In this document: positions 35,927-61,010 of the stretch, in pieces
How the letters are laid out: each line of letters opens with the position of its first letter
Numbering within the stretch: position 1 is the stretch's first letter
Source: a virus
Length of the DNA: 64,000 bases
IMG/VR virus record: IMGVR_UViG_3300042261_002391
Span: 24,469-88,468 of that record
Reading direction: 5' to 3' (one strand)
The notes under the pieces: model-generated
The model's input: the letters and a program-made list of their open reading frames with translations, nothing else
What the model was told of the DNA's origin: nothing
Databases searched by the model: none
Made by a program: the position numbers and the translations under genes

Positions 35927-35960
35927 ATTATTTTTACCCAACATGTCAATGAACTAAAAC

Positions 35961-35991
35961 AAAAAACCCGAAACTTTTGATTTCGGGTTTT
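35961..35991 (-). terminator. attenuator terminator of tRNA operon 1
   Basis: AAACCCGAAA-TCAAAAG-TTTCGGGTTT + U tract, between leader ORF and first tRNA; boxA-like GTTCATTGACAT follows at 35943-35954. Confidence 0.9.
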
Positions 35992-36010
35992 ACTTTATGC
36001 TTAATATTCT

Positions 36011-36145
36011 TTACGAACCTATCGCATCCTCTACACCCGAATCAATTACAATATTTCTGCCTGTAATGTTAGAACAGAATATACCATTTCCATTGCGACT
36101 TGATGTCCCAAAATTTGAACTTGATATGGTTGTAAAAGTATTCAT
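36011..36145 (-). CDS. attenuator leader peptide of tRNA operon 1: MNTFTTISSSNFGTSSRNGNGIFCSNITGRNIVIDSGVEDAIGS
   Basis: Translated by hand; residues 2-32 use only N,T,F,I,S,G,R,C. Confidence 0.88.
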   Translation of the reverse strand: MNTFTTISSSNFGTSSRNGNGIFCSNITGRNIVIDSGVEDAIGS

Positions 36146-36173
36146 CGTTTTTATTTTTAATTGTTAATATTAA

Positions 36174-36233
36174 TTCGTTTTCATCTAAATACGTTGCAAA
36201 GGTAAAAAAGGTTACACAATTTGCAAACATTTT
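36174..36233 (-). promoter_or_regulatory. composite promoter (housekeeping TTTG-N19-TACCTTTG + ECF TGTAACC-N16-CGTAT + late-like GTATTTA)
   Basis: Near-identical copy at 60951-61010. Confidence 0.8.
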
Positions 36234-47277: not shown

Positions 47278-48042
47278 TTACTTATTAGTATCTGTAGTAA
47301 TCGACCCTGCAGTATTACTAACAACTGATGAACCATTTTGATTATCGGCATTAATAAGACCTTTAGATTTTAATTTAAAACTAGCATCCTTACTTGACAT
47401 GCTACGATAACTCACTGTTGCATCAGATAATGTTGCTGACATATTAAACACGCCATCACTAGTTGCAGTATAGGTATACGTATTTGATGTTGAAATTCCA
47501 AATCCACTACCAACCGAAAATGCATCTTGGTTTGCAGCGAGATAAATGAAATTCCAATTATCGTCTTCGCACTCTTTAATCATTTGTTTAATGGTATCCA
47601 ACTTATACTCCTTACTGGCATTTTCCTGACCATCGGTTACAATACAAACCAATACTTTCGATGGTTTCACGTAATCTAATTTAGCAAACGTTGCCCGGGT
47701 GCTATTAATTGTTTTACCAATTGCATCGTATAATGCAGTCATACCTCTAGGCTTCCAAACTTCTTTTGAAATTTTTTCAGCCTTTTTAATGTCGATATTG
47801 TCATAAACCAATTCATATTGGTCATCGAATAATACAACGCTGATTGTTGCCTCATCCGGCAATTTTTTCTGTTCATCCAGAAATGTACCGAATCCACCAA
47901 CACTATCGTCAATAATGTTGGACATAGACCCTGAACGGTCAAGAATACAGATTATGTGTGTTTTTTCATTTGTTGGCATTTCTACCTCTACTTTAACTCT
48001 AGCCATATTAATTATAATTAAACTTGAAATTATTTTTAGCAA
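47278..48042 (-). CDS. vWA domain protein
   Basis: ILDRSGSM, GMTALYDAIG, VTDGQENAS (start may be slightly downstream). Confidence 0.9.
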   Translation of the reverse strand: MLKIISSLIIINMARVKVEVEMPTNEKTHIICILDRSGSMSNIIDDSVGGFGTFLDEQKKLPDEATISVVLFDDQYELVYDNIDIKKAEKISKEVWKPRGMTALYDAIGKTINSTRATFAKLDYVKPSKVLVCIVTDGQENASKEYKLDTIKQMIKECEDDNWNFIYLAANQDAFSVGSGFGISTSNTYTYTATSDGVFNMSATLSDATVSYRSMSSKDASFKLKSKGLINADNQNGSSVVSNTAGSITTDTNK

Positions 48043-48108
48043 ATATAATATATTAAAATGGAAAATGCAAGTTATTTTTATTTAGACTAAATAAAAAATA
48101 ATGAAATA

Positions 48109-48780
48109 TTAAATAAAATCAGTACCATCAAATTCTTTTTTTAATTTATGGCATCTTTTGTAATTACCGCCTTTAGGTGCTAAACCTACGAATATTAGTG
48201 ATTGTCTAAAATTAAAATTATTTCTAATTAATGCTTCTAATAAGGTATCATCACTAATTTTTTTCTTGTTAGTTGTTTTATTTCTACCTCTCCATGTAGG
48301 TGTTAAAGCATGACAATTAGGGCATAATGCCTCTAAATTTTCTCTACTATTGTTATGATGATTACCGTCGATATGTTCCAATTCCAATGGAAGTGGAACA
48401 TCTAACCATTTACTTAATCCACACTTATTACATTTATTATTTTGTTCTAAAATAATTCTTTTTCTTAGTCTTTCATAACTTAATGTGGAAAATTCAGCAT
48501 TTAGTATTTTATCATTAAATAGTTTAGTCCTATTTTCTTTAATTTTTTTGATTTTATCAATGTCGATGATTTTAATGATATTGTTATCTTCCAATTTCTT
48601 AGATGGAAATACACCACCAACTTTCCTACCTTTTAATGACTTACTTACGGCAATATTAATATTGGTTCTATTTTCTTTTGTACTATATGCTCTAGCACAT
48701 GCTCTCGAACAAAAATCGCCGTTACTATATTTACTGTATTTTACGGCATCATTTACCTGACAATTTTTACATTTTTCCAT
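48109..48780 (-). mobile_element. HNH homing endonuclease (start moved to MEKCKNC)
   Basis: CNKCG...LEHIDGN...LCPNCH; ORF-track start overlaps tRNA-Lys. Confidence 0.9.
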
Positions 48781-48836
48781 AATTTGAACTAATTTTAATA
48801 TAAATACTATTAAAATTAAAATTAGTTCAAATTTAG

Positions 48837-48910
48837 TACTCCCGATGGGACTTGAACCCATAGTCTCGCACTTTAAAAGAGTGGGGTTTTACCAATTAAA
48901 CTACGGAAGT
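48837..48910 (-). tRNA. tRNA-Lys(TTT)
   Basis: Loop CTTTTAA. Confidence 0.9.
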
Positions 48911-48946
48911 ATCTTATTATAATAACTGTTATATTTTAACAGTTTG

Positions 48947-49028
48947 TAGGAATGGTAGGATTCGAACCTACTAGACCGAAGTACTTGATTTACAGTCAAG
49001 CCTAACCCTCCAACGTTAGCGCATTCCC
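48947..49028 (-). tRNA. tRNA-Tyr(GTA)
   Basis: CTTGA-CTGTAAA-TCAAG, variable arm, A73. Confidence 0.92.
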
Positions 49029-49038
49029 ATTTATATTG

Positions 49039-49130
49039 TGGAACATGTAGGATTCGAACCTACTTACTGCGACCAATACGACTATTTAGCGATGCAGGTT
49101 GGATTTACAGTCCAGTGCCGTTAATGTTCC
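49039..49130 (-). tRNA. tRNA-Tyr(GTA) with rearranged D-arm
   Basis: Perfect acceptor and T arms; only 8 nt between acceptor and anticodon stems; GTCGT-ATTGGT in the variable region. Confidence 0.8.
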
Positions 49131-49141
49131 AAATTTCCGTG

Positions 49142-49213
49142 TACTCCCGGTGGGAATCGAACCCACAACCCACTGATTAAGAGTCAGTTACTCTACCTTT
49201 AAGCTACAAGAGC
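49142..49213 (-). tRNA. tRNA-Lys(CTT)
   Basis: ACTGA-CTCTTAA-TCAGT. Confidence 0.93.
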
Positions 49214-49227
49214 AAATATATAAAAAC

Positions 49228-49255
49228 AAAAAACCCGAATCTTTCGAATCGGGTT
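49228..49255 (-). terminator. attenuator terminator of Lys/Tyr tRNA operon
   Basis: AACCCGATTC-GAAA-GATTCGGGTT + U tract. Confidence 0.9.
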
Positions 49256-49286
49256 CTTTTAATTTCTGGCTTTGCAAAATCATTGC

Positions 49287-49382
49287 TTATTTTTTGCGTC
49301 CTGCAGAACAAAACATTCCCGATTCCATAAGAGATTTCTTATAAGATTTATAACCGTAATATTTTTTTGCAGTAGCTTTCAT
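49287..49382 (-). CDS. attenuator leader peptide: MKATAKKYYGYKSYKKSLMESGMFCSAGRKK
   Basis: Translated by hand; 10 of residues 2-16 are K or Y. Confidence 0.88.
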   Translation of the reverse strand: MKATAKKYYGYKSYKKSLMESGMFCSAGRKK

Positions 49383-49417
49383 TTCTTTATTTTTTAATTG
49401 TTCAACTTTTAATAGTG

Positions 49418-49459
49418 CAAATATACGCATAAATACGAAATAAACAAGAAAAGGTTACA
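49418..49459 (-). promoter_or_regulatory. composite promoter (ECF + late-like + TTG-N19-TATATTTG)
   Basis: TGTAACCTTTTCTTGTTTATTTCGTATTTATGCGTATATTTG. Confidence 0.75.
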
Positions 49460-49511
49460 AAAAATAGCAACATTTTTCAAAGTTTTTTCTAAATTATTGA
49501 TTTTCAATATT

Positions 49512-50321
49512 TTATTCAACTAATCTAATTGTCCAATAGTCGGCAGATAACCCTGATTGTTCGACATATCCGTAAGGCAAATAGAAATATCCATTAATTC
49601 CCCATTTTTCACCCCAACTATTACGAACAATTAATGCTTGTTTATTATCGTCATAACCAACAGCAAGTACGGCATGTCCACCCATTGATTGTTCTCCGGG
49701 TTTAGGCATTGATGCAATTCCTGTACGAGCAACTTCATCACTCATAAACGATTCATATATTGTAAACCCAAATGCTACGGGATATCCATCAGATAAGCAA
49801 TGTTTTACTTCATATAACGTATGTGGACTAATTCTTAAATATTCCAGTACTTGATTATCTAACGCAACACGATAACAATCATTATTCGGTTTTGTTTTAA
49901 ATTTCCAAATATCATATTTCCACATTGATTCTGAACAAACACCGTCTTTGACCATTGTTTTAATACCATCACGAATCATCGCACCAGCATCTTCATTAAT
50001 AGTTCCCTCCAATGCTCTTTCATTATAATAAATGAACAATCTTGAAGGAATAAAATCTTGTTTCTTTTGTTTAATTTGTTCAAATTGAAATGCAGCACCT
50101 AAAGCATTTGCAGTACAACTACCTAATTCGCCTTGATTATAGACTGGTGGACAATATTGTCTTAAATCTACTATTGATGGTAGTTCATGAGGAGCAGTAA
50201 TTTTAAATTTACGGTCACGTGGGTCTACATTATCTTTTACCCAACCAAATTTAAATGTTTGTTTTTCGGGTTTACCGAAAATTTTCTTGAAGAATTTTTT
50301 AATTAATGTTAATAGTTTCAT
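49512..50321 (-). CDS. papain-family (C1A) cysteine peptidase
   Basis: QGELGSCTANA, GGHAVLAVGY, RNSWG. Confidence 0.95.
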   Translation of the reverse strand: MKLLTLIKKFFKKIFGKPEKQTFKFGWVKDNVDPRDRKFKITAPHELPSIVDLRQYCPPVYNQGELGSCTANALGAAFQFEQIKQKKQDFIPSRLFIYYNERALEGTINEDAGAMIRDGIKTMVKDGVCSESMWKYDIWKFKTKPNNDCYRVALDNQVLEYLRISPHTLYEVKHCLSDGYPVAFGFTIYESFMSDEVARTGIASMPKPGEQSMGGHAVLAVGYDDNKQALIVRNSWGEKWGINGYFYLPYGYVEQSGLSADYWTIRLVE

Positions 50322-50384
50322 AGTATTTCGTTTTCATATAAATACTATGAAAAATGGCTACATTGTTAAATGCAGCCATTTTAT

Positions 50385-51515
50385 TTATCCTACTTCATAA
50401 CCATCCTTAAACGGTTTTGAATATGTTGGTCTGATTTTCTTCCATATAATTTCATCATATGGTCTTTTATCAAACATTTTAAATAAGATGCTGCAATATT
50501 CAGTTTTAAGTGCTTCTGCTGCAAATTCTTTACGTGTTTTAATATCATTGATATGATAAATACGAATGAATTCTTTCAACGATAGTCTTTCAATTGAGTT
50601 ATATTCGTTTTCCAACGAAGCAACTGTTTTTTTCAACCAATCATAAAATTCGTCAGGTACTCGGTCAAGTAACGAATCAAAATCATAATTATTCATCAAA
50701 TGTTCCCATACCGTAATATTTGAAACATTCGTTAAAATACCATGTAATCTGATATATTCACTAAATTTTACTTTAACACGAAAACCGTCAGAAAACCTAA
50801 CAACAAAACCTTCACGATTTTCTTCTTCAAGTGCCTTCAAATCATTAAGATTCTTTATGTTTTTTAATTCATATTTCTTAACAACAGTAAAATACTTAGA
50901 ATACATCGCAATCAATTTATCGTATGGTAATTCTTCCCCGGTTGAAGTTATAATGTTACCTAGTAACACTAATTCCCTTCTATCACCATAATCGACAACA
51001 ATACGATTTTCTTTATATAAAATTTCGAACAAATATGTGCAATTACGATTCAATGCATCAAAAGTATTATTTTCAATCATTTTACGTGCTTCAATAACTT
51101 GCTCGGAAATAAATGAACCACGACTAGCAACAATCCATTGCATTATTTCTTCATAAAAGAAAACTATAATCAATGACCCATCCATTTTTTCAAAAATTTC
51201 AAATTCTTTAGACATATCAATTTCTGATGGGTCGTGTTCTTCAAAATTCTTGAATTTCATGAATGGTCTAGCAAGAATATTACCATTGCCATCAACAACC
51301 ATTCCACGACAAGATAATGTGTATACATCCCAAAATCTTTTAGATTGTACTTTAGGTGAATAATTCAAAATCCAAATATCATATTCTGGATGCTTATTGG
51401 CAACAATTAATCCATTGTCAATATATTCCCGCAATAATGCCCAATCAACTTCTTCCAACATTTCCATTCTATGTCCCCCTCTTTTTAGGATATGAGTATA
51501 ACTTGTTTCTTTCAA
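50385..51515 (-). CDS. T4 Rnl1-family RNA ligase
   Basis: EKMDGSL, SRGSF, FE, EGFVV, RVKVK (true start probably the internal MEMLEE). Confidence 0.9.
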   Translation of the reverse strand: MKETSYTHILKRGGHRMEMLEEVDWALLREYIDNGLIVANKHPEYDIWILNYSPKVQSKRFWDVYTLSCRGMVVDGNGNILARPFMKFKNFEEHDPSEIDMSKEFEIFEKMDGSLIIVFFYEEIMQWIVASRGSFISEQVIEARKMIENNTFDALNRNCTYLFEILYKENRIVVDYGDRRELVLLGNIITSTGEELPYDKLIAMYSKYFTVVKKYELKNIKNLNDLKALEEENREGFVVRFSDGFRVKVKFSEYIRLHGILTNVSNITVWEHLMNNYDFDSLLDRVPDEFYDWLKKTVASLENEYNSIERLSLKEFIRIYHINDIKTRKEFAAEALKTEYCSILFKMFDKRPYDEIIWKKIRPTYSKPFKDGYEVG

Positions 51516-52332
51516 GAAATTCTCGTCTCAATTGTTTTGTTTCATATTTATTCTCGCCTAAAACATATACGTATTTATGCTTTTTACCGATTTCCCGGGA
51601 TTCGCACGATAACATATAATCTTTAGATAATTTTTTTATCCTTTTAGCAATATCTTCAGGCATTTGGTCAAACTTTACACTATCACCTTTCTGCCAATCA
51701 AGTTGCCAAATAATTCCATCATTTTTTGCAACTTTTCTATATACTGAACGTGCTCTAAAATATCTGTCTGATACCCATCTACCTGATTCAATTCTATATT
51801 GTTTGCTTGCACCAGATTTCTTACCAATATAATAAAAATTACATGCTTGATAAAGAGTACCTAATTCATTTGCCTCCACATCAGAATATGCGACAAATAC
51901 TCTAAATCTGGTGTTTTTAACCATCCAATTAATAGCGTACATTATTAATGAACTTCCCAAATTTTTGGGTGACCAACTAATGCATGCACCTCTGCTAATT
52001 AATCTTTCAATCTTTTTGGTCTTTTCTCCAACTAATTTCGAAAAAACACTAGGCATATCCATTATCACAACACCTGCTAATATACCATTATATCTTGCAG
52101 TAAAAATGTGCGTTGGATATAAACTCATTCTGCCAAGCCATTCATGTCGTTCGATAAATTCTTTTACTTCATCGTAACACGCATCCTTTTCTTCGAATTG
52201 TATTGTAAAATCAGAAACTCTTAAATCCTTAACATCGTCTTCAGATAAATTTGCTCTTTTTAAATCTTCATCCCGGTTAGCAACCCTTATTTCATATTGC
52301 CAACAATTTTCAGTGTTTGTTTTTATTCCCAT
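51469..52332 (-). CDS. Mom-like GNAT DNA-modification protein
   Basis: ISRGACISWSPKNLGS...VAYSD...GTLYQACNF. Confidence 0.75.
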   Translation of the reverse strand: MGIKTNTENCWQYEIRVANRDEDLKRANLSEDDVKDLRVSDFTIQFEEKDACYDEVKEFIERHEWLGRMSLYPTHIFTARYNGILAGVVIMDMPSVFSKLVGEKTKKIERLISRGACISWSPKNLGSSLIMYAINWMVKNTRFRVFVAYSDVEANELGTLYQACNFYYIGKKSGASKQYRIESGRWVSDRYFRARSVYRKVAKNDGIIWQLDWQKGDSVKFDQMPEDIAKRIKKLSKDYMLSCESREIGKKHKYVYVLGENKYETKQLRREFLERNKLYSYPKKRGT

Positions 52333-60719: not shown

Positions 60720-60758
60720 GTATTTTTCAACCCACAATTTCAATGAACTACATAAAAC

Positions 60759-60790
60759 AAAAAAACCCGGCTTAATCTTAAGTCGGGTTC
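60759..60790 (-). terminator. attenuator terminator of tRNA operon 2
   Basis: AACCCGACTTAA-GA-TTAAGCCGGGTT + U tract; boxA-like GTTCATTGAAA at 60738-60748. Confidence 0.9.
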
Positions 60791-60817
60791 TTTAAACAAT
60801 AACAATAGAAAGGAGGT

Positions 60818-60925
60818 TTATTGTTTCAAATTTTTGAACCCGACTTTGCATAACATATCCTCTGCATCTGCCCATAAGAGGTCAACTGCCACAACCACTG
60901 CTAATATGTTTAGTAAAGTCTTCAT
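60818..60925 (-). CDS. attenuator leader peptide: MKTLLNILAVVVAVDLLWADAEDMLCKVGFKNLKQ
   Basis: Translated by hand; residues 8-25 use only L,A,V,D,W,E,M. Confidence 0.88.
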   Translation of the reverse strand: MKTLLNILAVVVAVDLLWADAEDMLCKVGFKNLKQ

Positions 60926-60950
60926 TTTGTTATTTTTTAAATTTTTAACT

Positions 60951-61010
60951 ATTCGTTTCATCTAAATACGTTGCAAAGGTATAAAAGGTTACACAATTTG
61001 CAAACATTTT
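60951..61010 (-). promoter_or_regulatory. composite promoter, near-identical to 36174-36233
   Basis: TTTGCAAATTGTGTAACCTTTTATACCTTTGCAACGTATTTAGATGAAACGAAT. Confidence 0.8.

What the first reader, a model, noticed from the sequence alone, without database searches (positions are those of the whole stretch)
48837..49459. Dedicated Lys/Tyr attenuator and mini tRNA operon
Leader MKATAKKYYGYKSYKK uses AAA, AAG, TAT and TAC; the only tRNAs downstream are Lys(CTT), Tyr, Tyr, Lys(TTT). GAATCGGG (49318-49325) is perfectly complementary to the terminator 5' arm CCCGATTC (49246-49253), while the terminator itself has a mismatch. tRNA-Lys is the known PrrC target and tRNA-Tyr is another reported target of tRNA-cleaving effectors, so a separate sensor for these two is suggestive (inference). 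This is the smallest unit for experiments.
Basis: partly seen in the sequence, partly recalled or inferred. Interest (0 to 1): 0.88.

Follow-up and report, generated by a model that had tools for sequence, protein, structure and literature searches.

The report
Lys/Tyr leader switch gating phage tRNAs
A large freshwater phage puts its lysine and tyrosine tRNA genes behind a tiny test gene full of Lys and Tyr codons joined to a switchable transcription stop, so it probably makes these tRNAs only when ribosomes read those codons slowly; I found no paper describing such control of tRNA genes.

Summary
On the minus strand lie, in order: a Bacteroidota-type promoter, a 31-codon ORF (10 of its first 15 post-Met codons are Lys or Tyr), an intrinsic terminator, then 12 nt later tRNA-Lys(CTT), an odd Tyr-like tRNA, tRNA-Tyr and tRNA-Lys(TTT). 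An 8-nt stretch inside the ORF pairs perfectly with the terminator's 5' arm, while the terminator itself carries a U.U mismatch.

The module recurs in 26 or more distinct viral contigs. There, 89 of 91 tRNAs within 1.5 kb downstream are Lys or Tyr. One hairpin covaries, and across 85 related elements the antiterminator covaries. Two sister leaders in this window, and dozens elsewhere, are built from the amino acids of their own downstream tRNAs (0 of 5000 permutations reach the observed match). Sphingobacterium trp operons use the same layout with a WWW leader.

Best reading (about 0.75): a trp-type ribosome-mediated attenuator giving demand-driven phage tRNA supply. The defence-sensor idea (PrrC, PARIS or retron targets) is untested. 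Its only support is circumstantial: a T4 Rnl1-type RNA ligase sits upstream in 20 or more relatives.

This scan has reported the same kind of element on other phage DNA. Eight literature searches found no published account. Nothing here is experimental.

The parts
49418..49448 (-). Promoter of Bacteroidota type: -33 CTTG, 19-nt spacer containing the conserved CGTATTTAT, and -7 box TATATTTG (49425-49418). The predicted transcript start is a few nt downstream.
   Evidence: Sequence. TTG-N17-21-TAnnTTTG is present at the same place in 23 of 27 pattern-hit loci, one of which (L019) is a chance match without the element. The consensus itself is from established knowledge of Bacteroidetes sigma-A promoters.
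49287..49382 (-). Leader ORF of 31 codons plus TAA: MKATAKKYYGYKSYKKSLMESGMFCSAGRKK.
   Evidence: An ORF of 26-31 codons is kept open across segment 2 in all 26 relatives.
49335..49367 (-). Regulatory codon block KKYYGYKSYKK (codons 6-16; a further Lys is codon 2). It is also the 5' strand of the 1:2 structure.
   Evidence: unique K/Y density in the contig; YYYGKKSYKK conserved in relatives.
49324..49346 (-). Hairpin P1 inside the ORF (TCTTATAAG / CTTATGGA), directly 5' of segment 2 and overlapping it by 2 nt.
   Evidence: 99% of cells paired. The closing pair is G-C in 18 sequences, A-U in 6 and G-U in 1, so the AAG/AAA Lys codon covaries with CTT/TTT. RNAalifold also predicts it.
49310..49366 (-). 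The whole 1:2 (anti-antiterminator) structure: an outer helix between the KKYY codons and GAATGTTTT, enclosing P1 and segment 2. Its dG is -11.9 kcal/mol.
   Evidence: MFE folds. On the alignment 83% of cells are paired, with weak covariation.
49318..49325 (-). Segment 2, GAATCGGG: the 5' strand of the antiterminator, read as codons E-S-G.
49274..49297 (-). Spacer hairpin GCAAAA...TTTTGC, which holds the stop codon (49289-49287). It forms the apical part of the antiterminator structure.
   Evidence: the spacer folds better than its shuffles in 26 of 26 relatives (mean z -1.6), and the stop codon lies 18-28 nt after segment 2.
49222..49255 (-). Intrinsic terminator: 5' arm AACCCGATTC (segment 3 core 49253-49246), GAAA loop, 3' arm GATTCGGGTT (segment 4, 49241-49232), then the run TTTTTTGTTTTT. 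It has one U.U mismatch and a dG of -11.9 kcal/mol.
49142..49213 (-). tRNA-Lys (anticodon CTT). It starts 12 nt after the U-run, which leaves no room for a promoter of its own.
   Evidence: 67 bits.
49039..49130 (-). Atypical tRNA-Tyr-like gene (anticodon GTA) with a D arm reduced to 5 nt and a 32-nt variable region.
   Evidence: 34.4 bits against a gathering score of 29. ARAGORN does not call it.
48947..49028 (-). tRNA-Tyr (anticodon GTA).
   Evidence: 38.7 bits.
48837..48910 (-). tRNA-Lys (anticodon TTT), the last tRNA of the unit.
   Evidence: 61 bits.
50385..51467 (-). Context gene: a T4 Rnl1-family RNA ligase, upstream on the same strand and separated from the module by a papain-family peptidase gene (49512-50321).
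   Evidence: Pfam PF09511, 70.5 bits. The same ligase lies 0.2-3.5 kb upstream of the K/Y leader in 20 or more related loci.

Best explanation
This is a ribosome-mediated (leader-peptide) transcription attenuator of the trp/his type. It controls tRNA genes rather than biosynthetic enzymes.

Proposed mechanism:
1. Host RNA polymerase starts at the Bacteroidota-type promoter and transcribes a 31-codon leader.
2. If Lys and Tyr codons are decoded quickly, the ribosome runs through segment 2 to the stop codon, which lies inside the loop of the would-be antiterminator. Segment 2 is then either covered or re-sequestered in the 1:2 structure. The terminator hairpin (3:4) forms and transcription ends 12 nt before tRNA-Lys(CTT).
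3. If Lys-tRNA or Tyr-tRNA is scarce, the ribosome stalls in the KKYYGYKSYKK block. The 1:2 structure is held open, and the free GAAUCGGG pairs with CCCGAUUC as soon as that emerges. The terminator cannot form.
4. Polymerase then reads into the Lys, Tyr-like, Tyr and Lys tRNA genes.

The products relieve the stall, so the circuit is a negative feedback loop that matches phage tRNA supply to decoding demand.

Shown from sequence and comparison: the parts, their conservation, the alternative pairings and the leader-to-tRNA correspondence.
Inferred: translation of the leader, the direction of the switch, and the physiological trigger.
For: 1. Complete anatomy in the right order, with no promoter space between terminator and first tRNA.
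2. K/Y density is unique in the contig: 1 of 74,149 windows.
3. The module is found in 26 distinct viral contigs by a leader pattern and in 24 distinct K/Y leaders by an independent terminator-based pattern. In the latter set the first tRNA is always Lys or Tyr, and 89 of 91 tRNAs within 1.5 kb are Lys/Tyr, against 14 of 324 behind other leaders.
4. The module moves as a unit. In L002 and L003 other genes lie between the peptidase gene and the leader.
5. Structure: P1 is 99% paired with G-C/A-U covariation, and 0 of 500 shuffles reach the observed covariation score. The antiterminator is 98.6% paired, against 65% or less when the partner is slid, and RNAalifold prefers it over the terminator.
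6. Across 85 distinct elements of many leader families, the base 5' of TCGGG covaries with the base 3' of CCCGA (AT 30, GC 28, TA 11, CG 3). That is 89% paired against 50% with shuffled partners, p<0.0005.
7. The terminator is systematically the weaker partner. All three flanking pairs are Watson-Crick in 41 of 86 antiterminators but only 15 of 86 terminators. In the K/Y family the mismatch column is U.U in 14 and U.G in 11 of 26.
8. A 1-nt indel makes this window, L016 and L029 read segment 2 as E-S-G, where the other relatives read G-I-G or R-I-G. The RNA is conserved, the peptide is not, and the ORF still ends 18-28 nt after segment 2.
9. With the nascent RNA ending at segment 3, a ribosome mask at any A-site up to codon 16 leaves P(2:3) at 0.98-1.0. 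Masks at codons 17-27 give 0.
10. Two sister leaders in the window, and dozens elsewhere, are composed of the isotypes of their own downstream tRNAs: mean in-set fraction 0.59 against 0.30 +/- 0.027, reached by 0 of 5000 permutations.
11. Sphingobacterium has the same promoter, leader, segment 2 and terminator design, with a WWW leader, in front of trpE and trpG. The layout is therefore a working attenuator type in the likely host phylum.
Against: - There are no expression or ribosome data. The RNA contigs laid on the region were mostly other organisms' tRNA-Lys.
- At equilibrium the full-length RNA folds into the terminator whatever the mask.
- The truncated free RNA of this window prefers 2:3 even without a ribosome. 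The off state therefore rests on kinetics and ribosome sterics that I could not simulate.
- The outer 1:2 helix has only weak covariation (83% paired).
- The antiterminator is invariant within the K/Y family, so its covariation comes only from sister families.
- The terminator is modest (-11.9 kcal/mol with a mismatch), so basal read-through may be high.
- Leader codon choice does not track which Lys isoacceptor is present downstream.
Confidence: 0.75

Rival explanations
1. The same attenuator hardware is present, but the signal that matters is not tRNA shortage. It would be amino-acid starvation, the general translation rate, or the degree of transcription-translation coupling during infection. 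The element would then be a timer or global gauge, and the Lys/Tyr content would only tune its sensitivity.
For: Leader-peptide attenuators report charged tRNA, which depends on amino acid supply as much as on tRNA level (established knowledge of trp and his attenuation). The free RNA of this window favours the antiterminator without any ribosome, so loss of translation as such could also open the switch.
Against: Extra tRNA does not cure amino-acid starvation. Each leader family mirrors exactly the isotypes of its own tRNA block, and a global gauge would not need that.
Confidence: 0.1
2. The ORF is an ordinary small-protein gene with its own terminator. The tRNAs are made by constitutive read-through or processing, and the Lys/Tyr richness reflects the AT-rich genome.
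For: The genome is about 31% G+C. The N-terminal M-R-T-F-G-T is fairly conserved in relatives.
Against: The K/Y density is unique in the contig. The C-terminal half changes reading frame between relatives while the RNA is conserved. The link to Lys/Tyr tRNAs is exclusive. Antiterminator covariation has no role in a plain gene. Sister leaders match their own tRNA sets.
Confidence: 0.05
3. The element is an RNA-only switch, bound by a protein, a small molecule or a tRNA in the manner of a T-box, and the ORF is incidental.
For: P1 and the alternative helices are conserved RNA structures.
Against: No Rfam family, T-box included, matches at E<=1. The start codon, an open frame across segment 2 and a narrowly placed stop codon are kept in all 26 relatives, even across a frameshift. 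The regulatory block is defined by codons, not by one specifier.
Confidence: 0.04

Closest known systems
Leader-peptide attenuators of enterobacterial amino-acid operons (trpL, hisL, pheL, leuL; multivalent thrL and ilvL)
   Same: The layout is the same: a promoter-proximal mini-ORF with a cluster of sensing codons, 1:2 / 2:3 / 3:4 alternative helices, an intrinsic terminator, and a stop codon placed so that an unstalled ribosome blocks the antiterminator. From memory, the published trp leader energies are about -11, -12 and -20 kcal/mol. Here the values are -11.9 for 1:2, about -14 for the 2:3 duplex without loop cost, and -11.9 for 3:4.
   Different: The regulated genes are tRNAs rather than enzymes, so the product itself is the sensed molecule (direct autoregulation). 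The element is phage-encoded and there is no sequence relation: no Rfam leader family matches. Two amino acids are sensed that share no biosynthetic pathway.
Bacteroidota trp-operon leader found here (Sphingobacterium athyrii, L146:135-280, in front of trpE and trpG)
   Same: It has the same promoter type (TTTG / TAnnTTTG) and a leader ending in I-S-I-G-N, whose ATCGGG segment is a perfect complement of the terminator 5' arm (CCCGAT). The terminator has a wobble where the antiterminator is perfect, followed by a T-run.
   Different: It carries three Trp codons and regulates anthranilate synthase. It is cellular, not viral. Whether the phage elements descend from such host attenuators or converged on the same design is open.
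pheST (phenylalanyl-tRNA synthetase) attenuator and T-box riboswitches
   Same: Both tie expression of a component of the translation apparatus to the state of the cognate tRNA through terminator/antiterminator choice (established knowledge).
   Different: pheST regulates a synthetase, not tRNA genes. T-boxes bind uncharged tRNA directly and need no translation, and no T-box match is present.
Anabaena trn operon (a 26-gene tRNA array silent until translational stress)
   Same: It is an accessory tRNA gene array that is switched on when translation is impaired (PMC8421152; PMC10272220).
   Different: Control is by the ribbon-helix-helix repressor TrcR binding DNA, not by a leader peptide and terminator. 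The array is cellular and plasmid-borne and is not codon-specific (PMC10272220 abstract).
Phage tRNAs that rescue infection from tRNA-cleaving defences (T5 tRNA-Lys against PARIS; T5 tRNA-Tyr against retron Eco7/Septu)
   Same: Lys and Tyr are the isotypes involved (PMC11464382; PMC11555353; PMC13096335). Phage copies replace the depleted host tRNAs.
   Different: Those papers concern E. coli phages and the tRNAs themselves; no sensing element is described there. Here the nuclease resistance of the tRNAs and the presence of such defences in the host are untested.

Membership tests
Ribosome-mediated (leader-peptide) transcription attenuator | Short ORF with start and stop codons between a promoter and the regulated genes | tested here: met
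   ORF 49382-49287 lies behind the promoter at 49448-49418. Both are conserved in relatives.
Ribosome-mediated (leader-peptide) transcription attenuator | Cluster of codons cognate to the regulated product | tested here: met
   10 Lys/Tyr among codons 2-16, a density unique in the contig. Downstream tRNAs are Lys/Tyr here, and 89 of 91 are Lys/Tyr in relatives.
Ribosome-mediated (leader-peptide) transcription attenuator | Intrinsic terminator (G+C-rich hairpin plus U-run) between the leader and the regulated genes | tested here: met
   Located at 49255-49222 with a dG of -11.9 kcal/mol; 90% of cells paired in 26 relatives. The simple scanner missed it because of the U.U mismatch.
Ribosome-mediated (leader-peptide) transcription attenuator | Antiterminator helix that uses the terminator's 5' arm and a segment of the leader | tested here: met
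   A perfect 8-bp helix here; 98.6% paired in the family; chosen by RNAalifold; covaries across 85 elements.
Ribosome-mediated (leader-peptide) transcription attenuator | Anti-antiterminator (1:2) that overlaps the sensing codons | tested here: inconclusive
   The MFE of this window forms it. P1 is well supported, but the outer helix is only 83% paired with weak covariation, and the truncated free RNA prefers 2:3 in this window.
Ribosome-mediated (leader-peptide) transcription attenuator | Stop codon placed so that a non-stalled ribosome prevents the antiterminator | tested here: met
   The stop codon lies 18-28 nt after segment 2, inside the spacer hairpin, in all 26 relatives. Masks at codons 17-27 abolish 2:3. 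The steric block at the stop codon itself is inferred.
Ribosome-mediated (leader-peptide) transcription attenuator | Read-through rises when the cognate charged tRNA is limiting | not testable with these tools
   This needs reporter, in vitro or Term-seq experiments.
Rfam leader families (Trp_leader, His_leader, Leu_leader, Thr_leader and the like) and T-box | Match to the family covariance model | tested here: not met
   cmscan of 48000-50500 at E<=1 found only the four tRNAs and chance hits.
Anti-defence phage tRNA module (PARIS, retron or PrrC evasion) | Phage tRNA-Lys/Tyr variants resistant to a host tRNA nuclease, needed for infection of defended hosts | not tested
   Only circumstantial evidence: the Lys/Tyr isotypes, an Rnl1-type ligase in synteny, and an aberrant variable region in the second Tyr gene. 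No Pnkp was found in the 27%-complete fragment.

The most novel reading that the evidence does not exclude
The Lys/Tyr module is a dedicated counter-defence circuit. When a host anticodon or variable-loop nuclease (analogues of PrrC, PARIS AriB or retron/Septu PtuAB) destroys tRNA-Lys or tRNA-Tyr, ribosomes stall in the leader. The switch opens and the phage floods the cell with its own, possibly nuclease-resistant, Lys and Tyr tRNAs, including the rewired Tyr gene. The syntenic Rnl1-type ligase meanwhile repairs cleaved tRNAs.
Probability: 0.2. Interest if true: 0.95.

Novelty: new variant of a known kind. Interest (0 to 1): 0.85.

Why it matters
- Phage tRNA genes are usually treated as constitutive cargo. 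If this reading is right, they are expressed on demand, block by block, through a sensor that reads out the cell's capacity to decode exactly the codons those tRNAs serve.
- It would be, as far as my searches show, the first case of leader-peptide attenuation applied to tRNA genes, and a direct autoregulatory loop in which the product is the signal.
- It would explain why tRNA genes in these phages are grouped into fixed isotype sets.
- It offers compact natural sensors of codon-specific decoding speed for synthetic biology.
- It makes the question of what phage tRNAs are for testable: codon-usage compensation, replacement of degraded host tRNAs, or escape from tRNA-cleaving immunity. One only needs to ask what opens each switch.
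- The Lys/Tyr unit, about 230 nt from promoter to terminator (49448-49222), is the smallest and cleanest one to test.

Tried and rejected
- Cultured or deposited phages: blastn of the region and of the sister Asp-type leader against 50,697 phage records found no homologue of the leader. It found only HNH, tRNA and peptidase fragments, so no isolate is at hand.
- Expression: 24 public runs hold parts of the stretch, from freshwater, wastewater, bioreactor and sediment metagenomes. Laying two metatranscriptome runs, one probable DNA run and one DNA run gave mainly generic tRNA-Lys contigs from other organisms. One exact 96-nt RNA contig lay over tRNA-Tyr. There is no information on leader 3' ends or read-through.
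- Equilibrium folding of the full leader with ribosome masks always gives the terminator. This is expected for a kinetic switch and does not discriminate.
- The consensus terminator scanner did not list this terminator, because the mismatch splits the stem.
- Codon-level matching (AAG against presence of tRNA-Lys CTT) shows no pattern. Nearly all leaders carry all four codons.
- Search for a polynucleotide kinase/phosphatase partner of the ligase (PF08645, PF13671) in the 88-kb fragment found none. The fragment is only 27% complete, so this says little.
Only one had tRNAs downstream, and it is a phage-like 5.8-kb contig in a MAG.
- Eight literature searches and one paper on attenuator surveys turned up no description of leader-peptide control of tRNA genes.
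Full report
**What is there**

The window is an AT-rich stretch (about 31% G+C) of an 88-kb viral record. CheckV rates it 27% complete. It carries 39 tRNA genes called by ARAGORN, nearly all on the minus strand.

Reading the minus strand from 49460 downwards, the parts are:
- A promoter with CTTG, a 19-nt spacer and TATATTTG (49448-49418). This fits the Bacteroidetes sigma-A consensus TTTG / TAnnTTTG, which I know from the literature on that phylum.
- An A-rich 5' leader.
- An ORF of 31 codons (ATG 49382, TAA 49289-49287) reading MKATAKKYYGYKSYKKSLMESGMFCSAGRKK.
- A small hairpin that contains the stop codon (49297-49274).
- An intrinsic terminator, AACCCGATTC-GAAA-GATTCGGGTT followed by TTTTTTGTTTTT (49255-49222).
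- Twelve nucleotides later, tRNA-Lys(CTT), a Tyr(GTA)-like gene with a truncated D arm and a 32-nt variable region, tRNA-Tyr(GTA) and tRNA-Lys(TTT).

GAATCGGG inside the ORF (49325-49318) is a perfect complement of the terminator's 5' arm core CCCGATTC (49253-49246). The terminator stem has a U.U mismatch at the same position.

The one amendment is that the leader runs for 31 codons and contains the antiterminator segment.

**Is it more than chance?**

Among 74,149 stop-free 15-residue windows in all six frames of the contig, only this one has ten or more Lys/Tyr.

**Conservation**

The neighbouring papain-family peptidase gene led to relatives in IMG/VR. In these the same mini-ORF, hairpin and Lys/Tyr tRNAs follow. 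In two of them another gene sits between the peptidase and the mini-ORF, so promoter, leader, terminator and tRNAs travel together.

A pattern taken from the leader found 38 loci, giving 26 distinct sequences.

A second pattern was built only from segment 2 and the terminator, and so is blind to the leader's codons. It recovered 24 distinct K/Y leaders. In every one the first downstream tRNA is Lys or Tyr. Of the tRNAs within 1.5 kb, 89 of 91 are Lys/Tyr, against 14 of 324 behind other leaders.

The promoter motif is present at the same place in 23 of 27 pattern-hit loci, one of which (L019) is a chance match without the element.

**RNA structure**

On the 26-sequence alignment A1:
- The hairpin P1 is formed by the S-Y-K codons and the codons just before segment 2. 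It is 99% paired, and its closing pair switches between G-C (18), A-U (6) and G-U (1). The Lys codon AAG/AAA thus covaries with CTT/TTT. None of 500 column shuffles reaches the observed covariation score.
- The terminator is 90% paired, but its mismatch column is U.U in 14 and U.G in 11 sequences.
- The antiterminator is 98.6% paired, against 65% or less for slid partners. RNAalifold chooses P1 plus the antiterminator as the consensus structure.
- Within this family the antiterminator never varies, so I looked across families. In 85 distinct elements followed by tRNAs, the base just 5' of TCGGG and the base just 3' of CCCGA form AT (30), GC (28), TA (11) or CG (3). That is 89% paired against 50% for shuffled partners, p<0.0005. 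The next two positions are also above their controls.
- All three flanking pairs are Watson-Crick in 41 of 86 antiterminators but in only 15 of 86 terminators.
- The spacer between segments 2 and 3 folds better than shuffles in 26 of 26 relatives. The stop codon always lies 18-28 nt after segment 2, inside that fold.

**Translated leader or small protein?**

A 1-nt indel makes this window, L016 and L029 read segment 2 as E-S-G, where the other relatives read G-I-G or R-I-G. The RNA is identical and the downstream peptide is unrelated. Yet the frame stays open across segment 2 and closes at the same distance. That is what an attenuator needs and not what a protein gene shows.

**Logic of the switch**

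With the nascent RNA ending at segment 3, a 30-nt ribosome mask with its A site on any codon up to 16 (all the Lys/Tyr codons) leaves the 2:3 helix at probability 0.98-1.0. Masks on codons 17-27 abolish it (with similar results for eight relatives).

With the whole terminator present, equilibrium always favours 3:4, as is also true of the trp leader. The choice must therefore be kinetic.

The full-length MFE shows a 1:2 structure in which the KKYY codons pair with the sequence just after segment 2 and enclose P1. Its outer helix is only weakly supported by comparison. In this window the truncated free RNA prefers 2:3. The off state therefore probably depends mostly on the ribosome itself covering segment 2, or sitting at the stop codon inside the antiterminator loop. 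This step is inferred.

**Context that bears on mechanism**

The window contains two sister units with the same promoter type, segment 2 and terminator:
- One precedes the Cys-Ile-Ser-Phe-Gly-Asn-Thr-Arg-Met block (leader ATG 36145).
- One precedes the Asp-Glu-Val-Leu-Ala-Met-Trp block (leader ATG 60925). Here an 11-nt segment is perfectly complementary to the terminator arm, and the terminator has an A.C mismatch.

Their leaders are written in the amino acids of their own tRNA blocks. The generic scan shows dozens of further families doing the same:
- A leader rich in I, H, M, S, N, W and R precedes Ser-His-Trp-Ile-Met-Asn-Arg.
- A leader rich in T, Y, Q, P, K and G precedes Pro-Gln-Tyr-Thr-Gly-Lys.

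Over 42 representative leaders, the mean share of leader residues that belong to the downstream set is 0.59, against 0.30 +/- 0.027 when sets are permuted (0 of 5000 permutations).

The same pattern in cellular genomes hit true trp attenuators of Sphingobacterium. These have a leader with WWW that ends I-S-I-G-N, a perfect antiterminator, a wobble in the terminator, and then trpE and trpG. The design is thus native to Bacteroidota, the likely host phylum. Only one of 121 cellular hits had tRNAs behind it, and it is a phage-like fragment.

**The defence idea**

Lys and Tyr are indeed the isotypes hit by PARIS and by retron Eco7/Septu in E. coli, and phage T5 tRNAs rescue infection (PMC11464382, PMC11555353, PMC13096335). 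tRNA-Lys is also the PrrC target, repaired in T4 by Rnl1 with Pnkp (established knowledge).

A T4 Rnl1-family ligase (PF09511, 70.5 bits) lies 1 kb upstream on the same strand. It keeps that position in 20 or more related loci. These loci are all one phage lineage, so the synteny is a single observation rather than many. No Pnkp is seen in the fragment.

Because every tRNA block has its own leader, and other lineages mix Tyr and Lys with Pro, Gln, Thr and Gly, a special defence role for this unit is possible but not indicated. I give it about 0.2.

**Comparison and novelty**

The element works like the trp, his, thr and ilv leader-peptide attenuators and meets their sequence-level criteria. 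It matches no Rfam leader or T-box model.

What differs is the cargo. The sensed molecule and the product are the same, which gives direct feedback on tRNA supply.

The nearest published case of stress-induced tRNA arrays that I could find is the Anabaena trn operon. It uses the DNA-binding repressor TrcR (PMC8421152, PMC10272220).

Eight literature searches gave no report of leader-peptide control of tRNA genes.

Earlier notes of this scan describe the same kind of element in other phages and in this window. Those are unchecked AI notes, and I used them only as leads.

**Verdict**

The feature is real and conserved. It is very probably a ribosome-mediated attenuator for a Lys/Tyr tRNA mini-operon. 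It is a new variant of a known mechanism, of high interest, and ready for a simple reporter test.

The 3' limit of the unit is not settled. After tRNA-Lys(TTT) come an AT-rich inverted repeat, an HNH-like ORF and a 241-residue ORF. The next strong terminator on this strand is at 47244-47222.

Noticed in passing
window 49039-49130 (-): The second Tyr(GTA) gene has intact acceptor, anticodon and T arms, but only 5 nt where the D arm should be and a 32-nt variable region (Rfam 34.4 bits; missed by ARAGORN). Septu is reported to cut the variable loop of tRNA-Tyr (PMC13096335), so an altered variable region could matter. It could also be a decaying copy.
   Followed up: partly
window 50385-51467 (-); L001, L002, L006, L013, L016, L020 and others: A T4 Rnl1-family RNA ligase (PF09511) sits upstream of the Lys/Tyr module in this window and in 20 or more related contigs, usually with a papain-family peptidase gene between them.
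   Followed up: partly
window 35927-36226 (-) and 60720-61010 (-): Two sister attenuators with near-identical promoters (TTTGCAAATTGTGTAACC...TACCTTTG). Their leaders use only the amino acids of their own tRNA blocks. In the Asp-block unit an 11-nt segment, AAGTCGGGTTC, is perfectly complementary to the terminator arm.
   Followed up: partly
L146:100-290 (+), Sphingobacterium athyrii; also L148, L160, L194, L202, L227, L229: Cellular trp attenuators with a WWW leader ending I-S-I-G-N, built on the same segment 2 and terminator motif as the phage elements, in front of trpE and trpG. They may be the evolutionary source of the phage design.
   Followed up: partly
window 48783-48831: A perfect 17-bp AT-only inverted repeat (arms 48783-48799 and 48815-48831) lies between tRNA-Lys(TTT) and the start of an HNH-like ORF (ATG 48780). 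HNH-type ORFs also interrupt the Lys/Tyr tRNA block in relatives such as L002.
   Followed up: no
L014, L015, L030, L037, L039, L042 (first 30-140 nt after the terminator): Where the first tRNA lies more than 130 nt after the terminator, the gap holds repeats of a motif like GCATAAAAACGCATATTGTTGCATAAAAA. Its function is unknown, and it is absent from this window.
   Followed up: no
window 49426-49444 and the same place in relatives: The promoter spacer contains an almost invariant CGTATTTAT between the -33 and -7 elements of the Lys/Tyr units. It may be a binding site for a phage or host regulator, or an extended promoter element.
   Followed up: no
window 51469-52332 (-): A 287-residue ORF matches the Mom protein family (PF25680, 42.5 bits), which points to a DNA-modification gene next to the RNA ligase.
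   Followed up: no
L044, L045, L051, L056, L060, L065 and others: There are many further leader families in viral contigs, each mirroring its tRNA block. Examples are a Q/Y/P-rich leader before Tyr-His-Pro-Gln and an L/F/V/T/Q-rich leader before Gln-Phe-Thr-Val-Leu. Contig sizes reach 360 kb.
   Followed up: partly
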